A DNA stretch of 24,000 bases from Promethearchaeota archaeon (GCA_013375475.1 JABXKD010000028.1:17174-41173); one strand, 5' to 3'. Shown: positions 6,590 through 21,155, counted from the stretch's first letter. Notes: a model not told the origin generated them from the sequence alone. A program made the numbers and translations.

Positions 6590-6868
6590 ATGGAAAATTT
6601 AGAAGAAAAAGGCTTGATAATTTATAACGCCATATTTCAGGGAGAAAAAAATGTTGAAATTGATGAGATCGAATATCCCATTAAAAAATTTTCAAGTGGA
6701 ATTAAGTATGTAGATTTTTTTGGATATCGCTTTATAGAACAGAATAGAAACAAAAAATCAGAATGGGGTAAGAAAGCTCGAGAGGGTCATAAAATTATGT
6801 GGATAATAAAAGAAAGGAGATACATTTCCCAAATATTAGATGGGAACTATAATGAATTAAAAAAATAA
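6590..6868 (+). CDS. hypothetical protein (92 aa)
   Basis: Only sizeable ORF in this interval, with coding-like composition. I cannot name the FIEQNRNKKSEWGKKAREGHKIMW block. Confidence 0.45.
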   Translation: MENLEEKGLIIYNAIFQGEKNVEIDEIEYPIKKFSSGIKYVDFFGYRFIEQNRNKKSEWGKKAREGHKIMWIIKERRYISQILDGNYNELKK

Positions 6869-7194: not shown

Positions 7195-7383
7195 ATGAAT
7201 GAATTAGCTGAGATTAACTTTGGATATTATGAGTTTTTGACAATCATTCACGAAATATCGAAAAAATCGCAATCCATACAGAAAGAATCAATAAGAAAAG
7301 TGTATGAGAACTATGACTTGAAGTTATATCGAAGGAAATTAGAAAATGAAATTGCAAAACTCGATAAACTATTAATTAAGTAG
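7195..7383 (+). CDS. hypothetical small helical protein (62 aa)
   Basis: Short ORF after a 326-bp ORF-free gap. Charged, helix-prone sequence with no recognisable motif. Confidence 0.3.
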   Translation: MNELAEINFGYYEFLTIIHEISKKSQSIQKESIRKVYENYDLKLYRRKLENEIAKLDKLLIK

Positions 7384-7423: not shown

Positions 7424-8023
7424 TTATAAGCCTTTTAATTTATCAGAAATCAACTCTAAATAAGACTTTTTAATTGATTCTTCTTTTTTAATCCCAAATT
7501 TAGCTAAAAATTGGAATAATATCTTTTTACTCTTCTCCACATCATCTACTGATTCTGTCATTAATTCTACTTCAATAAAATGCTGTTCTAAAATAGGAAT
7601 GTAATCGATTAACGCTTCTATTCTCGCCCCATCAAACATAAAATCATATAACTCTCTTTTTTTAACAACTGTGAAAATGTCTCGAAACCCTAAGAATTTA
7701 AGAAGGTTTTTCATATCTTCAATTTCACTTATTTTTATTTCGATTTCTTCTCTTGTTTTTGTTGTTTTATCAATTTTTTTACCTTTATATGTTATATAAT
7801 AGTTAGTTTTATGAGGTTTTGATGTATTGTCTTTTAAAAATCCAACAGATTTTCTTAATCTTAATGCTTCGTCCGTTTGTTTAAAATCTCTTAATCCTTC
7901 AGGCATATTAAAATAAGTATCCTCGTGATCCAGCGAAAGTTTATAAATCCCATTGTTTTCTTTAAACTTTTTCCTCATAAGATTCGGATCGGAGATTTTA
8001 ACTTTAATCTCAACTTCAATCAT
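7424..8023 (-). CDS. CYTH-domain protein (CyaB-like class IV adenylyl cyclase / triphosphate tunnel metalloenzyme)
   Basis: N-terminal MIEVEIKVKI carries the ExExK CYTH signature. Also present: DTYF, EALRLRKS, ITYKGKK...TREEIEIKI and a C-terminal FIEVEL, matching the CYTH strand pattern. Confidence 0.8.
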   Translation of the reverse strand: MIEVEIKVKISDPNLMRKKFKENNGIYKLSLDHEDTYFNMPEGLRDFKQTDEALRLRKSVGFLKDNTSKPHKTNYYITYKGKKIDKTTKTREEIEIKISEIEDMKNLLKFLGFRDIFTVVKKRELYDFMFDGARIEALIDYIPILEQHFIEVELMTESVDDVEKSKKILFQFLAKFGIKKEESIKKSYLELISDKLKGL

Positions 8024-9120: not shown

Positions 9121-9702
9121 TCATTGTTTCTTTCTTAAATATTGCCCTTTATCGCTAATATTTATAGCAAATACATCGTTAGGCTTAATATTTAAAATTG
9201 TTTCATTATTGACTTGTGAAATACCTAATCCAACGATCTCATCAATTCTATTCAAGATCAATAAGAAATCTTTTTCTTTTAGATTATTTGGGCTTTTTCT
9301 GACCATCTTCTTTAGGACATTATTTCCATAAAGAAATGCTTTCTCTCCACCTTTAGTAAGATGAAGCTGTTTAAAATCGGTAAAGATGCCATTTTTACAT
9401 AAATACTCCACGCCCTCTATGCTAAAATAAAAGATTCCCTTTTTCAGGAAACCAAAATATAAACCCGCAGAGTAAATTAGATTTATAATAATAGTCTCAT
9501 TAAGTAATTTCTGTTGTTGATCTGTAATTAAGTAAATGGAAGGATAGTCTTTTTGGGTAGTTGAATTATTGATTAAGATATAGAGCAAATTCTTCATGTT
9601 CTCTAAAGTATGTGATAATTCAGGAGATATATTATTAAAAGTAGTGGCAATTATTGATGTTTCAATAGAATTAATCTGTCTAAAAATTCGTGTATTTGTC
9701 AT
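9121..9702 (-). CDS. NIP7-like ribosome-biogenesis protein with C-terminal PUA domain
   Basis: The C-terminal half, GEKAFLYGNNVLKKMVRKSPNNLKEKDFLLILNRIDEIVGLGISQVNNE...VFAINISDKGQYLRKK, follows the yeast Nip7 pattern recalled from memory: PFLYGNHVLKAHV...GVIVFAMNDVPLGFGVS...ADIGEYLRDE. Confidence 0.75.
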   Translation of the reverse strand: MTNTRIFRQINSIETSIIATTFNNISPELSHTLENMKNLLYILINNSTTQKDYPSIYLITDQQQKLLNETIIINLIYSAGLYFGFLKKGIFYFSIEGVEYLCKNGIFTDFKQLHLTKGGEKAFLYGNNVLKKMVRKSPNNLKEKDFLLILNRIDEIVGLGISQVNNETILNIKPNDVFAINISDKGQYLRKKQ

Positions 9703-9781: not shown

Positions 9782-10498
9782 ATGGGTATTCGGAAAATTG
9801 AAGATGAAATTGATCTAAGAGAAGCCATGAAGAAGAAGGCAGCGGAGCTAAAAATTAAAGATATAGAAGCAAAAGCATCAACAGAAAACTTCACAAAAGA
9901 AAGGCTTACAGATTTAGCAAAGAACCACGGAGTTATTTTAGCTTTAACTCCAGAATTGAAGGAAGAAGTTAAAGCTTTACAGAAGAAGTTTAATATTCCC
10001 TCATCCAAAATAATTACAGAGCAAATCACAGAAAACGATGTCTTAAAGAAATTTTCAAAAATTGACATTGAAAGTTTAGGTATGCTAGCTTACCAGAGAA
10101 TCTTGTTGCAAAAAGAAGAAATTGGAGTTGGACTATTACCTATTTCTAAAGTTTATGATCTCGTTAACACAGGTATTTTAAAAGGAATATTAGAGTTAAA
10201 AGATCTACACAAGGCTTTGAAGATGCTTAATAAAAATCATGTGATAGACGATTTACAGGAATTAGACTCTGGCATCGTTATGGTTAGATTCTTTCCAGTT
10301 CAATACACAGGCGATCAAGTAAAGGTTGTCGGAGTTGCCAGAGAAAAAGGCTTTATTTCTGTTGAAGATGTATGCATCGCGTTAAACTGGTCTCAAGATC
10401 GCGCATTAGAGACTTTAAAATCACTAGAAAAAACTGGAGTAGCAAAGTTAAGAGAATCTCTCTTAAAGGGGAAGCAATGGTATTTCCCTTCTTTATAA
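9782..10498 (+). CDS. ESCRT-II subunit, EAP30-family (Vps22/Vps36-like), tandem winged-helix
   Basis: C-terminal 130 aa, GLLPISKVYDLV...DLHKALKMLNK...GIVMVRFFPVQYTGDQVKVVGVAREKGFISVEDVCIALNWSQDRALETLKSLEKTGVAKL...KQWYFPSL, parallels human SNF8/EAP30 recalled from memory: GLITLEELHQQV...DLIRAIKKLKALG...NGYVTVSEIKASLKWETERARQVLEHLLKEGLAWLD...HYWLPAL. Confidence 0.85.
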   Translation: MGIRKIEDEIDLREAMKKKAAELKIKDIEAKASTENFTKERLTDLAKNHGVILALTPELKEEVKALQKKFNIPSSKIITEQITENDVLKKFSKIDIESLGMLAYQRILLQKEEIGVGLLPISKVYDLVNTGILKGILELKDLHKALKMLNKNHVIDDLQELDSGIVMVRFFPVQYTGDQVKVVGVAREKGFISVEDVCIALNWSQDRALETLKSLEKTGVAKLRESLLKGKQWYFPSL

Positions 10499-10503
10499 TT
10501 GAA

Positions 10504-11403
10504 TTACTCAATTTTGATCTTAAAAGATATTTGCCCATCATCTAATTCAATAATCTTCCCCCTCTTTTCTTTTTCTAACATTTTAAAAATTTTGACAATA
10601 TCTTCACTGGGAAGTTTACTAAATTCTTTGTTGGATTCTCTTATTTCGAATACTAAAATTGGTTCTAATGGAGAAATTTCCATGGCCCATTCGTAGATTT
10701 CTTCCGCCCAGTTATCTAAGCTTTTCCAATATACTCTCAATTTCTCTTTACTTTTAGAAAGCCATTCAGCTTGTTCCTTATTGACTAATTCTTCTGCAAT
10801 TTCTTCCAAAGCTTTTTTGCGGTCTTCAAAGTTGGAGAAAGGTTTCTCAGATTCTGTCTTCCTAAGATATAGTATATGAAGAATTGCATAACGGGCGTAA
10901 TCAAAAAGAACTTTCGACCATTCTTGTTTCCAAGACTCGTAATCTTTCAAGTCCGTTTTTTTATTTGGAAGAGAATACATGAAGATATACCTTTTTTCTT
11001 CAAGCCACGGGTAATCGTTGAGTATCATTTCATAAGTTGAAACTTCTTTAGTTACTGCTCCTCTTTCCTTTACAATTTCTAATTCAAGTTCTCGTAGTTC
11101 TTTTTCTATTTGAGCAGCGTTTTGTTCGTAGGCTTTGTGATCGATCTCTCCCATTTTTGATGTTAGGAAATCTTCGATCTTATTAAGGCGAGCTTCAATT
11201 TCTTCACTTGGAAGCCCTTCAGTGCTAGTTTCTGGCACCAATTCTTCCGATTTTGTTTCAATCTCTTTTAATTCCCTATATCTCTTAAGTTCTTTTAAAC
11301 GAGCTAATTCTTTCCTTAATCCATCTAATTCTCTTTCTGGTTTTTCTTTAACTTCCTTAACTTCTTTAACAGCTTCGTCGGGTTTCTCTTTTTGGCGTTC
11401 CAT
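10504..11403 (-). CDS. ESCRT-II subunit Vps25 homologue with long N-terminal charged coiled-coil extension
   Basis: The C-terminal ~170 aa align by eye with human VPS25: AEWLSKSKEKLRVYWKSLDNWAEEIYEWA versus LEWLDKSKSSFLIMWRRPEEWGKLIYQWV, and the tail RGKIIELDDGQISFKIKIE versus KAEIITVSDGRGVKFF. The N-terminal ~125 aa are E/K/R/L-rich heptad-like sequence. The gene starts 21 nt downstream of Vps4 on the same strand, so an operon is likely. Confidence 0.85.
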   Translation of the reverse strand: MERQKEKPDEAVKEVKEVKEKPERELDGLRKELARLKELKRYRELKEIETKSEELVPETSTEGLPSEEIEARLNKIEDFLTSKMGEIDHKAYEQNAAQIEKELRELELEIVKERGAVTKEVSTYEMILNDYPWLEEKRYIFMYSLPNKKTDLKDYESWKQEWSKVLFDYARYAILHILYLRKTESEKPFSNFEDRKKALEEIAEELVNKEQAEWLSKSKEKLRVYWKSLDNWAEEIYEWAMEISPLEPILVFEIRESNKEFSKLPSEDIVKIFKMLEKEKRGKIIELDDGQISFKIKIE

Positions 11404-11424
11404 ATCCTACATCCTTGGTTGTTT

Positions 11425-12642
11425 TTAATACTCTCCGAATTCTCTTGCCCATTGTTCGTATTGATCTAGTGCCGAATCAGTAGTCATGGGTTTTACTTTC
11501 TTCAAAGTCTTCGTAAAATCTTGTAAATTAATATCCCTTACAATAACTTCTTGATCAGAGTTTTCCAGAAGCCCTGCCATATCTAATTCCCTTATGGGGA
11601 TCATTATGACTTCTCGACACACATTAGAGATATCTCTTCCAGAATATCCTTCCGCTCTAACTCCTAATTCTATAAAATCTTCCTCAGTTAGCGCCATATT
11701 AATACCTGCGGTGTGGATTTTAAAAATTCCAACTCTAGCCGTTAAATCTGGAAGTGGAACATACACTTTTTTCTCAAACCTGCTAAGCATAGCTGTATCA
11801 ATATCCCAGGGTCGATTGGTTGCCCCTAATACTAACAAAGGTTTCTTAGAACCCGATTTAATTCCTTGAATTTCGCTTAAGAGTTGAGTTTTTACCCTTC
11901 TTTCACCTCCACCTTCGTGGCCTTCACCTCTTTTAGTCGCTACTGAATCGATCTCGTCCATGAAAATTAAACTTGGTGCTTTTATTTTAGCAACCTTGAA
12001 TAGAGAACTAATTAACTTCTCACTTTCTCCTAACCATTTACTTAATAAATCTGCTGAGGAGACGCTAAAAAATGTAGCTTGACATTCAGTAGCAGCAGCT
12101 CTGGCAAGCAGAGTTTTCCCACATCCAGGAGGTCCAAATAACAATATGCCTGACCACGGTTTTCTTGCTCCCGTAAATAAATTAGGTTTCATTATAGGCA
12201 AAACTATTGCTTCTCTTAAAGCTTGTTTACTTCCTTCCAAACCCGCGATATCGGTCCATTTTACATCAGGAGATTCAGTTAATATCGTTCCTGATATTGA
12301 GTCAATTATTTCTTGTTCTTCAGCGGAATATTCTCCCTCTTCTGCTTTTGGTTCGCCTTCTTTAGGCTCACTTGGTCTACTAGAAGGTCTTCCTCTCCTA
12401 ACCTTGGGACCGCTTAAATGGACTTTAAGTACGTTAGCACGCTCTAGGTATTGCTCTATTTGATCGTGACATTTTCTTACCATTATCGGATTTTTATTAT
12501 ATTTTACGAATTGTATTAAAATCTCTGCAGCTCTTTGATATTTATTTAGAGCTTGTCTATAATGCCCCTTTTCATCCAATTCTACAGCTGCTTGCGCTTC
12601 TTGAACGGCATATAGGTAAAGCTTACTATCAACACTACTCAA
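11425..12642 (-). CDS. vps4: Vps4 (MIT domain + AAA+ ATPase), ESCRT-III disassembly ATPase
   Basis: N-terminal MIT-like three-helix region (AVQEAQAAVELDEKGHYRQALNKYQRAAEILIQFVKY). VKWTDIAGLEGSKQALREAIVLPIMKPNLFTGARKPWSGILLFGPPGCGKT (Walker A). LIFMDEIDS (Walker B). GATNRPWDID (sensor 1 region). C-terminal helix QYEQWAREFGEY resembles eukaryotic Vps4 (EQFTRDFGQEG). TTG start. Confidence 0.95.
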   Translation of the reverse strand: MSSVDSKLYLYAVQEAQAAVELDEKGHYRQALNKYQRAAEILIQFVKYNKNPIMVRKCHDQIEQYLERANVLKVHLSGPKVRRGRPSSRPSEPKEGEPKAEEGEYSAEEQEIIDSISGTILTESPDVKWTDIAGLEGSKQALREAIVLPIMKPNLFTGARKPWSGILLFGPPGCGKTLLARAAATECQATFFSVSSADLLSKWLGESEKLISSLFKVAKIKAPSLIFMDEIDSVATKRGEGHEGGGERRVKTQLLSEIQGIKSGSKKPLLVLGATNRPWDIDTAMLSRFEKKVYVPLPDLTARVGIFKIHTAGINMALTEEDFIELGVRAEGYSGRDISNVCREVIMIPIRELDMAGLLENSDQEVIVRDINLQDFTKTLKKVKPMTTDSALDQYEQWAREFGEY

Positions 12643-12862
12643 CAGTGATAACCTTTTAAAAGTAATTATTTATCTTATTTATCTTAAAATATTCTTAATA
12701 TTTATAGGTAAGCTAGTTCATTGTTTAATTTATTAATTAATTCTTCCATGAATATCAAATTTCCTTTTTAAAAAAGTATGTAAAAATTGGTCTACAACAA
12801 AGAATTATATAATCTTGATTTTTCTTATATTATATAAAATAAATAATAATTGATGAAATAAG
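12643..12862. promoter_or_regulatory. divergent intergenic promoter region between vps4 (minus) and the ESCRT-III gene (plus)
   Basis: 220-bp ORF-free, extremely AT-rich spacer between two divergently oriented genes. TATA-like runs lie upstream of each start: ATTATATAA and TTATATTATATAAAA on the plus side, and the minus-strand AAGATAAATAAGATAAATAAT about 24-45 nt upstream of the vps4 TTG. Individual elements cannot be separated from AT-rich background by eye. Confidence 0.35.
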
Positions 12863-13489
12863 ATGGGTTTTCTCAAGGATATGAGTAACTGGCTCTCAGG
12901 AGGCAAGAAAAAAGATACTGTTCGTTCAGCAACAGTTAAGCTTAAGGTTTTTAATAAAAGGCTTATGAGAAACACAAAGAGAATGGAGATGACTGCTAAA
13001 CAAGCAAGAGATAAAGCTGTACGACTTAGGAAGGCTGGTGATATGGATGGATCCGAATTTCATGCACGCAATTATCTTCAAGTTAAAAAACAAGCTAGAG
13101 CAATTGACCACTTTAGAACGAATTTAGAAGGTATGGTGTTTAAATTAGAGCAAGCTAACGCAGTTAAAGATATAGCCGATATTATGAAAGGCATTGCCAT
13201 GAGCTTAGGAATGTTAAAAACTCAATTCTCTGTACCTGAACTTACAGAATTAATGACAGAAATCGGTATTGATATGGAGGATTTCGAAGTAACTCAAGAG
13301 ATCACATCAGATGGAATAGACACTATGACTTTGGATACTGCTGTCACTGACAATCAAGTTAAAGAGATATTAGGTGAGATCGACGCAGAAATACAAGTTG
13401 AAGTAGGTGGAGCTTTACCCTCTATAGATCCGGATGGAAAAGTAAAAGAATTGGAAGATGAATTAAATAAACTGAAGTCGAGAGATTAG
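12863..13489 (+). CDS. ESCRT-III protein, Snf7 family (Vps2/24/46- i.e. CHMP1-3-like)
   Basis: 208 aa with a basic N-terminal half and an acidic C-terminal half. ARNYLQVKKQARAIDHFRTNLEGMVFKLEQA resembles yeast Vps2 AKDLVRTRNYIQKF...QLQAISLRIQ. VKEILGEIDAEIQ resembles VNKVLDEIGVDL. The C-terminal VKELEDELNKLKSRD resembles the MIM1 helix (DDLQARLNTLKK). Confidence 0.9.
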   Translation: MGFLKDMSNWLSGGKKKDTVRSATVKLKVFNKRLMRNTKRMEMTAKQARDKAVRLRKAGDMDGSEFHARNYLQVKKQARAIDHFRTNLEGMVFKLEQANAVKDIADIMKGIAMSLGMLKTQFSVPELTELMTEIGIDMEDFEVTQEITSDGIDTMTLDTAVTDNQVKEILGEIDAEIQVEVGGALPSIDPDGKVKELEDELNKLKSRD

Positions 13490-20575: not shown

Positions 20576-21055
20576 TTAGAATTTTTGGATTTTTGCATAT
20601 TTTTTCTCAATAAAGTTAGCTACCAGAAGAGAAATCAAAGTTGCCACATTCTCAGCTATCAAAAAAGCTATGACATTATCTAAAAAAGTTATACATATAC
20701 CATATGCGGTAAAAAATGCTGCAGTAAATATGGGAAAAACGATAACTACTGGTCGTACAACTGGAAATTGTAAGAAATTTCTTAATTTTGAACCTGTTTG
20801 TCTTGATTTTTGAAATTGAGTTCTCAGCTTTTTTCTTTTCTCGACTTGTACAAAAGATTCAAAAATAAGTACAACACCAAAAAATAAGGCAATTGTTGCT
20901 CCAACAGGGATCAAAATTACGACAATGTAATTACCTACTCCTAAAAAATATTGAGCTATGAATACAAAAAGCGTTTGAAACAATCCACAAACTCCAAATA
21001 GCATTAAAGCGATCGGTAAATATTCCTTTGAGGTCCATCGAAATCTTATCGGCAT
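20576..21055 (-). CDS. hypothetical integral membrane protein (~159 aa, about 4 TM segments)
   Basis: The track ORF 20576-21118 runs into the tRNA-Val gene. I trimmed it to the first ATG outside the tRNA (MPIRFRWTSKEY...). It has four long hydrophobic stretches separated by a basic loop (EKRKKLRTQFQKSRQTGSKLR). Confidence 0.55.
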   Translation of the reverse strand: MPIRFRWTSKEYLPIALMLFGVCGLFQTLFVFIAQYFLGVGNYIVVILIPVGATIALFFGVVLIFESFVQVEKRKKLRTQFQKSRQTGSKLRNFLQFPVVRPVVIVFPIFTAAFFTAYGICITFLDNVIAFLIAENVATLISLLVANFIEKKYAKIQKF

Positions 21056-21078
21056 TATAATCCGTGTATTTTGTAATT

Positions 21079-21155
21079 TGGTGGGCCCGGCGCGAATTGA
21101 ACGCACGACCTTCTCCACGTCAAGGAGACGTCATACCAGGCTAGACCACGGGCCC
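21079..21155 (-). tRNA. tRNA-Val (anticodon GAC) with genomically encoded 3' CCA, no intron
   Basis: Minus strand reads GGGCCCG-UG-GUCU-AGCCUGGUA-UGAC-G-UCUCC-UUGACGU-GGAGA-AGGUC-GUGCG-UUCAAUU-CGCGC-CGGGCCC-A-CCA. All stems pair except a U13-U22 mismatch. GC-rich island in AT-rich DNA. Confidence 0.95.

What the first reader, a model, noticed from the sequence alone, without database searches (positions are those of the whole stretch)
9782..13489. Compact eukaryote-type ESCRT module (ESCRT-II Vps22/36-like, Vps25, Vps4, ESCRT-III) in an archaeal context
Four adjacent genes encode proteins that match human or yeast ESCRT subunits at residue level by eye; the aligned blocks are quoted in the feature evidence. 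Crenarchaeal Cdv systems lack the ESCRT-II subunits (EAP30 family, Vps25). The combination is known only from Asgard archaea and eukaryotes. This places the window in an Asgard genome and makes it the most biologically significant locus here, though the system is already described. Locus-specific points: one ESCRT-III paralogue is adjacent, whereas Asgard genomes usually encode two families. No ESCRT-I (Vps28, steadiness-box, UEV) or ubiquitin-system gene flanks it in this window; the left neighbour is NIP7 and the right a PfkB kinase. The genes form two divergent/convergent pairs rather than one operon.
Basis: partly seen in the sequence, partly recalled or inferred. Interest (0 to 1): 0.7.

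Follow-up and report, generated by a model that had tools for sequence, protein, structure and literature searches.

The report
Known Lokiarchaeial ESCRT-II/III–Vps4 gene cluster

Summary
Four adjacent ORFs encode a Vps22-like EAP30 protein, Vps25, Vps4 and an A-type (Vps2/24/46, CHMP1-3) ESCRT-III. All score above Pfam gathering thresholds and match solved eukaryotic and Asgard ESCRT structures.

They are full-length orthologs of Lokiarchaeum GC14_75 Lokiarch_37450–37480 (68, 49, 73 and 68% identity). The Vps25 is 100% identical to GenBank NVM44955.1 from a Candidatus Lokiarchaeota MAG. Gene order is conserved in 25 related MAG loci, and dN/dS is 0.02–0.09.

The system has been described since 2015, and the Loki orthologs have been studied experimentally. 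Verdict: already known.

- The EAP30 protein is closer to Vps22 than to Vps36.
- Vps4 and Vps25 are co-directional, 21 nt apart, and probably an operon.
- The second (B-type) ESCRT-III and the steadiness-box gene lie at a separate syntenic locus in related genomes.

Modest extras:
- A conserved element (TTGGWCTA core) lies upstream of both the A-type and B-type ESCRT-III genes.
- The Vps25 N-terminal extension is under purifying selection.
- Vps4 keeps only one SRH arginine finger and has a shortened β-domain.

The parts
9782..10498 (+). Vps22-like ESCRT-II subunit (EAP30 family), 238 aa; ortholog of Lokiarch_37450
   Evidence: Pfam EAP30 34.1 bits, residues 2-220. PDB best hits: human SNF8 3e-4, Vps36 8e-3. 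68% identity over the full length to Lokiarch_37450. dN/dS 0.05-0.09.
10507..11028 (-). Vps25 tandem winged-helix core (residues 126-299); stop codon at 10504-10506
   Evidence: Pfam ESCRT-II 49.4 bits. PDB: 9uyv 1.4e-47, Odin Vps25 7pb9 4e-23, human Vps25 5e-9. dN/dS 0.035-0.05.
11029..11403 (-). Vps25 N-terminal extension (residues 1-125): 49% charged, E/K-rich, absent from eukaryotic Vps25
   Evidence: No PDB or Pfam match before about residue 107-130. Conserved blocks at residues 21-40 and 61-120, variable linker at 41-60. dN/dS 0.11-0.18, so constrained. Composition. The AF2 model is low-confidence and only weakly suggests helices.
11404..11424 (-). 21-nt Vps4-Vps25 spacer with SD-like AGGATGTAGGAT; probable internal ribosome-binding site of a bicistronic operon
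   Evidence: Sequence read. The same spacing is seen in L001 and L002.
11425..12642 (-). Vps4 AAA+ ATPase, 405 aa, TTG start; MIT at nt 12424-12609, AAA at 11752-12147, Vps4_C at 11434-11553; ortholog of Lokiarch_37470
   Evidence: Pfam MIT, AAA, AAA_lid_3 and Vps4_C. Yeast Vps4 333 bits in a single stretch. 73% identity to Lokiarch_37470, with the same N-terminus MSSVDSKLY. Walker A GPPGCGKT 170-177, Walker B LIFMDE 225-230, pore loop KWLGE 202-206, KRG...RR arginine collar 237-251. SRH reads LSRFE where yeast has RRRFE, and the beta-domain is about 29 aa shorter.
12643..12862 (.). Divergent Vps4 | ESCRT-IIIA intergenic (promoter) region with conserved non-coding blocks
   Evidence: Alignment of 22 loci plus the window: conserved TCAAATTT(T/C)CT block at about 12753-12769, and TATA-like runs at 12803-12812 and 12826-12837.
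12786..12812 (+). Conserved element ATTGGTCTACAACAAAGAATTATATAA (TTGGWCTA core plus TATA box), about 50 nt upstream of the ESCRT-IIIA ATG
   Evidence: Unique in the window. The composite pattern was found once in 21 of the 25 loci; L006 and L008 do not include the region, and L019 and L024 carry variants that miss the pattern. The same core, in the same orientation, is conserved upstream of the B-type ESCRT-III gene in L026-L034. It is absent from the Vps28, SB-like and EAP30 promoters.
12863..13489 (+). A-type ESCRT-III (Vps2/24/46, CHMP1-3-like), 208 aa; ortholog of Lokiarch_37480 (KKK42122.1)
   Evidence: Pfam Snf7 56.7 bits. PDB: CHMP2A 1.2e-8, CHMP1B 1.6e-6. 68% identity to Lokiarch_37480. 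phmmer 58 and 55 bits to Thor and Heimdall ESCRT-IIIA versus 22 and 28 to IIIB. pI 10.5 for residues 1-120 and 4.05 for 121-208; C-terminal MIM1-like ELEDELNKLKSR. dN/dS 0.02-0.07. A T-tract (TTTTGTTTTT) follows the stop codon.

Best explanation
The locus is the Lokiarchaeial core ESCRT cluster, orthologous gene for gene to Lokiarchaeum GC14_75 Lokiarch_37450-37480. The inferred mechanism is transferred from experiments on the orthologs. A Vps22-like EAP30 protein, which forms a homodimer in Loki and Heimdall, binds Vps25 to make an ESCRT-II-like complex. Vps25 contacts the B-type ESCRT-III (Vps20/32/60, CHMP4-7-like), which is encoded at a separate locus and polymerises on membranes. The A-type ESCRT-III encoded here is recruited into that polymer and drives higher curvature. 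Vps4 binds the C-terminal MIM motifs of the ESCRT-III proteins through its MIT domain and uses ATP to remodel or disassemble the polymer. Shown here: the family identities, orthology, intact catalytic motifs, purifying selection and conserved synteny. Inferred from the literature: the protein interactions and the membrane activity. Unknown: the cellular process it serves in Lokiarchaeia (vesicle or protrusion scission, ubiquitin-linked sorting, or division).
For: Pfam and PDB assignments. Full-length orthology to Lokiarch_37450/60/70/80, which the literature lists as Vps22, Vps25, Vps4 and Vps2-class ESCRT-III (PMC5840170, Table 1). 100% identity to NVM44955.1 from a Lokiarchaeota MAG. Identical gene order in 25 related MAG loci. 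dN/dS 0.02-0.09. Walker A and B, pore loop, arginine collar, ESCRT-III charge asymmetry and a MIM1-like C-terminus are all intact. Published experiments on the orthologs: Loki Vps22 self-interaction, Vps25-ESCRT-IIIB and ESCRT-III-Vps4 yeast two-hybrid interactions (PMC9192718); Loki Vps4 is an active ATPase, binds MIM1 and MIM2, and partly complements yeast vps4-null (PMC7240154); Loki CHMP1-3 co-assembles with CHMP4-7 filaments that deform vesicles (PMC11791191); B-type recruits A-type in Heimdall (PMC11804906); MK-D1 Vps25 crystal structure (bioRxiv 2025.11.01.685982).
Against: No tree was built here, so placement of Vps4 relative to CdvC rests on score ranking and on orthology to a protein placed by others. 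Lu 2020 notes that Asgard Vps4 sequences are not monophyletic. The Vps4 SRH keeps only one of the two arginine fingers, although the Lokiarchaeum ortholog with the same LSRFE sequence is an active ATPase. Whether this MAG also encodes the B-type ESCRT-III, Vps28, UEV and ubiquitin genes could not be checked. No in-cell functional data exist for any Lokiarchaeon in the papers read.
Confidence: 0.93

Rival explanations
1. It is a TACK-type Cdv cell-division system (CdvB/CdvC) misread as eukaryote-like ESCRT.
For: The best NCBIfam hits are CdvC (268.6 bits) and CdvB (29.6 bits), because NCBIfam has no Vps4 or CHMP models.
Against: Both scores are far below the equivalog cut-offs of 650 and 370. 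The ESCRT-II subunits EAP30 and Vps25 are present, which Cdv systems lack (established knowledge; PMC5840170). No CdvA-like hit was found on any window ORF. Both the MIT domain and the full-length protein score higher against eukaryotic Vps4 than against CdvC.
Confidence: 0.02
2. The genes are eukaryotic contamination or a recent eukaryote-to-archaeon transfer in one MAG.
For: There is residue-level similarity to human and yeast subunits.
Against: Identity to eukaryotic proteins is low (E-values from 1e-4 to 1e-9 for the ESCRT-II and ESCRT-III proteins), while identity to Asgard orthologs is 49-100%. The same gene order, embedded among archaeal housekeeping genes, recurs in 25 independent MAG contigs. 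The genes are compact and intron-free, GC is a uniform ~30-37%, and the promoter regions are AT-rich and TATA-type.
Confidence: 0.01
3. This is a functional sub-rival: the module is genuine, but its main job in Lokiarchaeia is cytokinetic abscission, as in Sulfolobales, rather than ubiquitin-linked vesicle or protrusion scission.
For: ESCRT-III and Vps4 drive division in Sulfolobales (PMC10017037, listed). The two ESCRT-III promoters share a conserved element, which would fit coordinated, possibly cell-cycle, control.
Against: No ubiquitin or ESCRT-I gene is linked here, but Loki genomes do keep them and the proteins interact (PMC9192718). Asgard archaea also encode FtsZ (PMC12583498 abstract). 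[quoted passage not shown] Nothing tested here separates the two roles.
Confidence: 0.3

Closest known systems
Lokiarchaeum sp. GC14_75 ESCRT cluster Lokiarch_37450-37480 (Vps22, Vps25, Vps4, Vps2/24/46-like ESCRT-III)
   Same: Same four genes in the same order. Full-length identity is 68, 49, 73 and 68%. The Vps25 N-terminal extension, the Vps4 LSRFE SRH sequence and the N-terminus MSSVDSKLY are shared.
   Different: It comes from a different genus- or family-level lineage; Vps25 is only 49% identical, mostly because of the N-terminal extension. Nothing differs architecturally.
Candidatus Prometheoarchaeum syntrophicum MK-D1 ESCRT-II/III/VPS4 (bioRxiv 2025.11.01.685982); PDB 9uyv 'ESCRT-II complex subunit'
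   Same: The Vps25 WH core matches 9uyv at 1.4e-47 over residues 107-297. The preprint also reports an N-terminal extension.
   Different: The preprint calls the extension unstructured. Here it has conserved blocks and dN/dS of 0.11-0.18. That 9uyv is the MK-D1 protein is my inference; the PDB code was not found in any paper.
Eukaryotic ESCRT-II / ESCRT-III / Vps4 (yeast Vps22-Vps36-Vps25, Vps2/24/Did2, Vps4)
   Same: The domain families are the same: tandem WH ESCRT-II subunits, a basic-N/acidic-C ESCRT-III with a MIM1-like tail, and the MIT-AAA-Vps4_C ATPase.
   Different: There is a single EAP30 paralogue and no GLUE-domain Vps36. Vps25 carries an extra 125-aa N-terminal extension. The Vps4 beta-domain (the Vta1-binding site) is about 29 aa shorter and one SRH arginine is missing. 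There is one A-type ESCRT-III rather than several.
Crenarchaeal Cdv system (CdvA/CdvB/CdvC)
   Same: It also has an ESCRT-III homolog plus a MIT-AAA ATPase.
   Different: The window has no CdvA and does have ESCRT-II. Scores are below the NCBIfam CdvB and CdvC cut-offs. CdvC MIT domains score lower than eukaryotic Vps4 MIT domains.

Membership tests
EAP30 / Vps22 (ESCRT-II) | Matches the Pfam EAP30 (PF04157) profile above the gathering score over most of its length | tested here: met
   34.1 bits versus GA 26.8; residues 2-220 match profile positions 2-214 of 219.
EAP30 / Vps22 (ESCRT-II) | Closer to Vps22/SNF8 than to Vps36, with no GLUE domain | tested here: met
   PDB: SNF8 3.3e-4 versus Vps36 8.2e-3. 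At 238 aa there is no room for a GLUE domain. 68% identity to Lokiarch_37450, which is placed with Vps22 in the Hatano 2022 phylogeny.
EAP30 / Vps22 (ESCRT-II) | Forms the stalk of the complex (a homodimer in Asgard) and binds Vps25 | not testable with these tools
   Shown for Loki and Heimdall orthologs by yeast two-hybrid and SEC-MALS (PMC9192718).
Vps25 (ESCRT-II) | Tandem winged-helix core that matches Pfam ESCRT-II and solved Vps25 structures | tested here: met
   PF05871 49.4 bits versus GA 27. PDB: 9uyv 1.4e-47, Odin 7pb9 4.4e-23, human 3cuq_C 4.9e-9. The AF2 model was too poor to add anything (pLDDT 45.8).
Vps25 (ESCRT-II) | Binds B-type ESCRT-III (Vps20-like) | not testable with these tools
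   Vps25-ESCRT-IIIB interaction in yeast two-hybrid for Asgard orthologs (PMC9192718).
Vps4 (meiotic-clade AAA+) | Architecture of an N-terminal MIT domain, a single AAA cassette and a Vps4_C helix | tested here: met
   MIT residues 12-73, AAA 166-297, lid 321-355, Vps4_C 364-403. Only one AAA domain, unlike Cdc48/VAT, which match with two stretches.
Vps4 (meiotic-clade AAA+) | Intact Walker A, Walker B, pore loop 1 and pore-loop-2 arginine collar | tested here: met
   GPPGCGKT, LIFMDE, KWLGE and KRGEGHEGGGERRVK. The arginine collar is described for Asgard Vps4 in PMC7240154.
Vps4 (meiotic-clade AAA+) | Two adjacent SRH arginine fingers (yeast R288, R289) | tested here: not met
   The window has L-S-R where yeast has R287-R288-R289. 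Lokiarch_37470 has the same LSRFE and Thor has RSRFE. Lokiarchaeum Vps4 is nevertheless an active ATPase (PMC7240154), so this is a lineage variant and does not exclude membership.
Vps4 (meiotic-clade AAA+) | Beta-domain insertion (the Vta1/LIP5-binding site of eukaryotic Vps4) | tested here: not met
   Only profile positions 22-61 of 61 of Vps4_C match. There are about 8 residues where yeast has about 37.
Vps4 (meiotic-clade AAA+) | Phylogenetic placement with eukaryotic Vps4 rather than with CdvC or Cdc48 | tested here: inconclusive
   Score ranking favours Vps4, and the CdvC equivalog cut-off is missed. No tree was built. Placement is inherited from the 73%-identical Lokiarch_37470.
ESCRT-III, A-type (Vps2/24/46; CHMP1-3) | Snf7-family fold with a basic N-terminal half and an acidic C-terminal half | tested here: met
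   PF03357 56.7 bits versus GA 27.3. pI 10.5 and 4.05 for the two halves.
ESCRT-III, A-type (Vps2/24/46; CHMP1-3) | Closer to A-type than to B-type paralogues | tested here: met
   PDB: CHMP2A 1.2e-8 and CHMP1B 1.6e-6, versus Asgard Vps20/32/60-like 1.2e-5. phmmer 58 and 55 bits to Thor and Heimdall IIIA versus 22 and 28 bits to IIIB.
ESCRT-III, A-type (Vps2/24/46; CHMP1-3) | C-terminal MIM1 helix that binds the Vps4 MIT domain | tested here: inconclusive
   The C-terminus ...KELEDELNKLKSRD has the LxxxLxxL(K/R) spacing by eye. Binding was measured only for the Lokiarchaeum ortholog (PMC7240154).
Crenarchaeal Cdv system | CdvA present; CdvB and CdvC reach the equivalog scores; no ESCRT-II | tested here: not met
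   CdvC 268.6 versus 650 and CdvB 29.6 versus 370. No CdvA-like hit was found. ESCRT-II genes are present.
Complete Asgard ubiquitin-ESCRT pathway (ESCRT-I, ubiquitin, B-type ESCRT-III) in this genome | Vps28, UEV/Vps23 or steadiness-box, ubiquitin and B-type ESCRT-III genes in the same genome | not testable with these tools
   All are absent from the 24-kb window. Related Loki MAGs carry B-type plus SB-like genes at one separate locus and Vps28 at another. None of these hits could be traced to the window's MAG.

The most novel reading that the evidence does not exclude
Two points appear not to be described in the papers read. (1) A conserved cis-element with core (W)TT(N)GGWCTA lies upstream of both Lokiarchaeial ESCRT-III genes, in the same orientation. 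At the A-type gene it is in the window at 12786-12812 and abuts a TATA box. At the B-type gene it is at a separate locus. It survives in lineages whose synonymous sites are saturated, and it is absent from the Vps28, SB-like and EAP30 promoters. This suggests that an unknown transcription factor co-regulates the two ESCRT-III paralogues, and through the divergent promoter perhaps Vps4-Vps25 as well. (2) The E/K-rich 125-aa Vps25 N-terminal extension, called unstructured elsewhere, is under purifying selection and has conserved blocks. It may be a functional helical (ER/K-like) arm.
Probability: 0.35. Interest if true: 0.45.

Novelty: already known. Interest (0 to 1): 0.25.

Why it matters
The Asgard ESCRT cluster is a key piece of evidence that eukaryotic membrane-remodelling machinery has archaeal roots. 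Recognising it correctly identifies the window as Lokiarchaeial. This copy, however, adds no new component or architecture. Its modest value is comparative. It helps show that gene order, the Vps25 N-terminal extension, the single-arginine SRH of Vps4 and a promoter element shared by the two ESCRT-III genes are conserved across Lokiarchaeia. That gives testable leads on how the system is regulated in the cultured strains.

Tried and rejected
- AF2 model of full-length Vps25 from a 23-sequence alignment: mean pLDDT 45.8, too poor to use, so no fold search was run.
- Bacterial sigma-70 promoter and hairpin-terminator scan: fewer hits than in the shuffles, and not relevant to an archaeon.
- The conserved 62-aa helical ORF (7195-7383) as the free-standing steadiness-box protein reported near the Loki ESCRT genes: no Pfam hit, and a profile search of the PDB found no ESCRT-I match. 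The literature places that gene (Lokiarch_16740) beside the B-type ESCRT-III instead, which I confirmed in related loci.
- The 92-aa ORF at 6590-6868 as an ESCRT-I or ubiquitin-like protein: no hit.
- NIP7 divergence as a single gene replacement in the window's lineage: rejected, because the gene is fast-evolving between all lineages.
- Finding the B-type ESCRT-III from the same MAG: no hit was traceable to the NVM/HWN79 series.
- Spang 2015 (PMC4444528) is not held, and '9UYV' appears in no held paper.
- The shared promoter element was looked for in the Vps28 operon promoter and not found conserved there.

Full report
OBSERVATION. Each matches the proposed Pfam family above its gathering score. 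The scores are EAP30 34.1 bits, ESCRT-II/Vps25 49.4, Snf7 56.7, and for the ATPase MIT 49.3, AAA 137.1, AAA_lid_3 32.9 and Vps4_C 29.1. Sequence searches of the PDB agree. The 238-aa protein is closest to human SNF8/Vps22 (3e-4), ahead of Vps36 (8e-3). The 299-aa protein matches an 'ESCRT-II complex subunit' (9uyv, 1.4e-47), Odinarchaeal Vps25 (7pb9, 4e-23) and human Vps25 (5e-9). The ATPase matches yeast Vps4 in one stretch of 333 bits, whereas Cdc48/VAT reach similar totals only by matching it twice. The Snf7 protein is closest to CHMP2A (1.2e-8) and CHMP1B (1.6e-6). The neighbours are as described: the NIP7-like protein matches yeast NIP7 at 5e-11, and the right neighbour is a PfkB kinase.

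ORIGIN AND ORTHOLOGY. The Vps25 protein is 100% identical to GenBank NVM44955.1 (HWN79_08555, annotated 'hypothetical protein') from a Candidatus Lokiarchaeota MAG, on a contig of 41,393 bp. Supplementary Data 1 of Hatano et al. 2022 (PMC9192718) gives the Lokiarchaeum GC14_75 sequences. A tblastn of those against the window gives full-length matches to four consecutive genes: Lokiarch_37450 (Vps22, 68%), 37460 (Vps25, 49%), 37470 (Vps4, 73%) and 37480 (ESCRT-III, 68%). A 2018 review lists these genes as Vps22, Vps25, Vps4 and the Vps2-class ESCRT-III. It places the steadiness-box gene (16740) and the Snf7/Vps20/60-class gene (16760) elsewhere in the genome (PMC5840170).

Twenty-five loci, nearly all from Promethearchaeota MAGs, share the order PfkB, ESCRT-III, Vps4, Vps25, EAP30, NIP7, RsmB/F, CYTH. 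All four ESCRT genes are under strong purifying selection, with dN/dS of 0.02-0.09. This is therefore the known Lokiarchaeial core ESCRT cluster.

ANATOMY. EAP30(+) and Vps25(-) converge with 5 nt between their stop codons. Vps4(-) and Vps25(-) are co-directional. They are separated by 21 nt that contain an SD-like AGGATGTAGGAT, so they are probably one operon. ESCRT-III(+) is divergent from Vps4 across 220 bp. A T-tract follows its stop codon, and a separate TATA-like run precedes PfkB.

The ESCRT-III is A-type. It scores 58 and 55 bits to Thor and Heimdall ESCRT-IIIA, against 22 and 28 bits to IIIB. The A and B nomenclature follows Souza et al. 2025 (PMC11804906). Its N-terminal half is basic (pI 10.5) and its C-terminal half is acidic (pI 4.05). 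It ends in a MIM1-like ELEDELNKLKSR.

Vps4 has intact Walker A and B motifs, pore loop 1 and the pore-loop-2 arginine collar. Two features differ from eukaryotic Vps4. The SRH reads LSRFE where yeast has R287-R288-R289-F-E, so only one arginine finger remains. The β-domain is about 29 residues shorter. Lokiarchaeum Vps4 has the same LSRFE, is an active ATPase and partly complements yeast vps4Δ (PMC7240154).

On Vps4 versus CdvC, three results point the same way. The NCBIfam CdvC score is 268.6 against a cut-off of 650. The MIT domain scores 30.9 bits to yeast Vps4 but 22.4-18.3 bits to Sulfolobales CdvC. Full-length CdvC (4lcb) is not among the 60 best PDB hits, all of which score at least 290 bits, while yeast Vps4 scores 333. 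I did not build a tree.

VPS25 EXTENSION. Residues 1 to about 125 have no counterpart in eukaryotic Vps25 or in the solved cores. Thor, Heimdall and Odin Vps25 also carry extensions. Hatano et al. removed 58 residues from the Odin protein to crystallise it. The MK-D1 preprint calls the extension unstructured on the basis of AF3.

Here the extension is 49% charged and E/K-rich. It has conserved blocks at residues 21-40 and 61-120 around a variable linker at 41-60. Its dN/dS is 0.11-0.18, against 0.035-0.05 for the core. It is therefore constrained, only less tightly than the core. My AF2 model was too poor (pLDDT 45.8) to decide its structure.

WHAT IS NOT HERE. No ESCRT-I, ubiquitin or B-type ESCRT-III gene is in the window. 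This holds by Pfam on all ORFs of 90 aa or more. It also holds by six-frame tblastn with Asgard Ub, Vps23, Vps28 and SB proteins, and by a profile of the only conserved small helical ORF.

In related Lokiarchaeial contigs the B-type gene sits in its own syntenic locus: DHQS | Snf7(B), Meth_synt_2, a 657-685-aa protein, then L35Ae. The 673-aa protein from L026 is homologous to the Thor steadiness-box protein at 1e-28. Vps28 sits at a third locus, just downstream of a conserved gene of about 305 aa. Whether the window's own MAG has these genes could not be tested.

A SHARED PROMOTER ELEMENT. I aligned the Vps4|ESCRT-IIIA intergenic region from 22 loci and the window. This shows blocks conserved even where proteins are only 44-70% identical. 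The clearest is ATTGGTCT(ACA)ACAAA-AATTATATAA at window 12786-12812. It is unique in the window. The composite pattern was found once in 21 of the 25 loci. L006 and L008 do not include the region. L019 and L024 carry variants that miss the pattern.

Upstream of the B-type gene, TCAAAWTTYGGWCTATG-AAA is conserved in six of the seven B-type loci, and L034 has a variant (TTAAATATTGGTCTAGG). It lies in the same orientation relative to the ESCRT-III gene, and both sets show the same T/A variation in the core.

TTGGWCTA occurs 51 times in the 490 kb of Lokiarchaeial DNA in hand. Of these, 31 fall in the 17% that is non-ORF, and about 29 of those 31 are these two promoters. The Vps28 operon, SB-like and EAP30 promoters lack a conserved copy.

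There are three caveats. The copies are orthologous, so in effect two promoter families share a core of 8-10 nt (rough chance about 0.01-0.03). At the B-type locus the element lies next to the start of the divergent DHQS gene. No transcription start sites are known. I rate it a plausible co-regulation signal, not an established one.

VERDICT. The corrections are small: the EAP30 protein is Vps22-like, Vps4-Vps25 is a probable operon, and the ESCRT-III is A-type. The locus is an ortholog of one of the best-studied Asgard gene clusters and is already in GenBank. Novelty is 'already known' and interest is low, apart from the promoter and N-extension leads above.

Noticed in passing
window 12786-12812 (+); L026 about 7883-7901 and the equivalent positions in L029-L034: A conserved element with core TTGGWCTA lies upstream of both the A-type and B-type ESCRT-III genes of Lokiarchaeia, in the same orientation. 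It is absent from the Vps28, SB-like and EAP30 promoters. It may be a co-regulation site.
   Followed up: partly
window 9121-9702 (-): The NIP7-like PUA protein next to EAP30 evolves much faster than all its neighbours. Identity is 30-45% between lineages whose EAP30 proteins are 62-85% identical, and dN/dS is 0.19-0.38. It always sits beside an RsmB/F (Nop2-like) rRNA methyltransferase, which recalls the eukaryotic Nip7-Nop2 pairing (from my own knowledge).
   Followed up: partly
window 7195-7383 (+): An unannotated 62-aa helical ORF with a conserved YYEFL...IQK core is present in 16 related loci, always next to the CYTH gene. It has no Pfam hit and no PDB-profile hit.
   Followed up: partly
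window 6590-6868 (+): A 92-aa ORF with no Pfam hit is conserved at 65-92% identity in most related loci, although its position and orientation vary.
   Followed up: no
window 11425-12642 (-), Vps4 residues 283-290 and about 357-365: The Vps4 SRH reads LSRFE where yeast has RRRFE, leaving one arginine finger instead of two. Lokiarchaeum shares this, and Thor has RSRFE. The beta-domain is about 29 aa shorter than in yeast.
   Followed up: partly
Hatano et al. 2022 Supplementary Data 1 (PMC9192718), compared with window 12863-13489: That file labels Lokiarch_37480 'ESCRT3B' and Lokiarch_16760 'ESCRT3A'. By sequence, 37480 and the window protein group with Thor and Heimdall ESCRT3A, and 16760 groups with Heimdall 3B. 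The Loki labels are therefore swapped relative to the other lineages.
   Followed up: yes
L003, L015, L016, L018, L021 (record titles): Several MAGs titled Hermodarchaeota, Odinarchaeota or Hodarchaeota carry this cluster with Loki-type synteny and 68-89% Vps25 identity to the window. The true Odin LCB_4 Vps25 is only about 31% identical, so these taxonomic labels look unreliable.
   Followed up: no
L026 11811-11969 and the equivalent regions of L029, L031, L033 and L034: The region upstream of the SB-like gene contains strongly conserved non-coding blocks (TTATATCTGGATATTACATGATACATGAATAATATA and GATAAAGCGATTT). They could be a regulatory site or a small RNA.
   Followed up: no
L035-L038 (Vps28 loci): Loki Vps28 lies just downstream of a conserved gene of about 305 aa (no Pfam hit, or a faint Yip1 hit), with gaps of 1-62 bp. 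EMC3/TMCO1-like and SecY genes are nearby, so the neighbourhood has a membrane-trafficking flavour.
   Followed up: no
window 20576-21118 (-) and tRNA-Val at 21079-21155 (-): The 180-aa ORF looks like a membrane protein and is conserved in 9 loci. As listed, it overlaps the 3' part of tRNA-Val, so its true start is probably further downstream.
   Followed up: no
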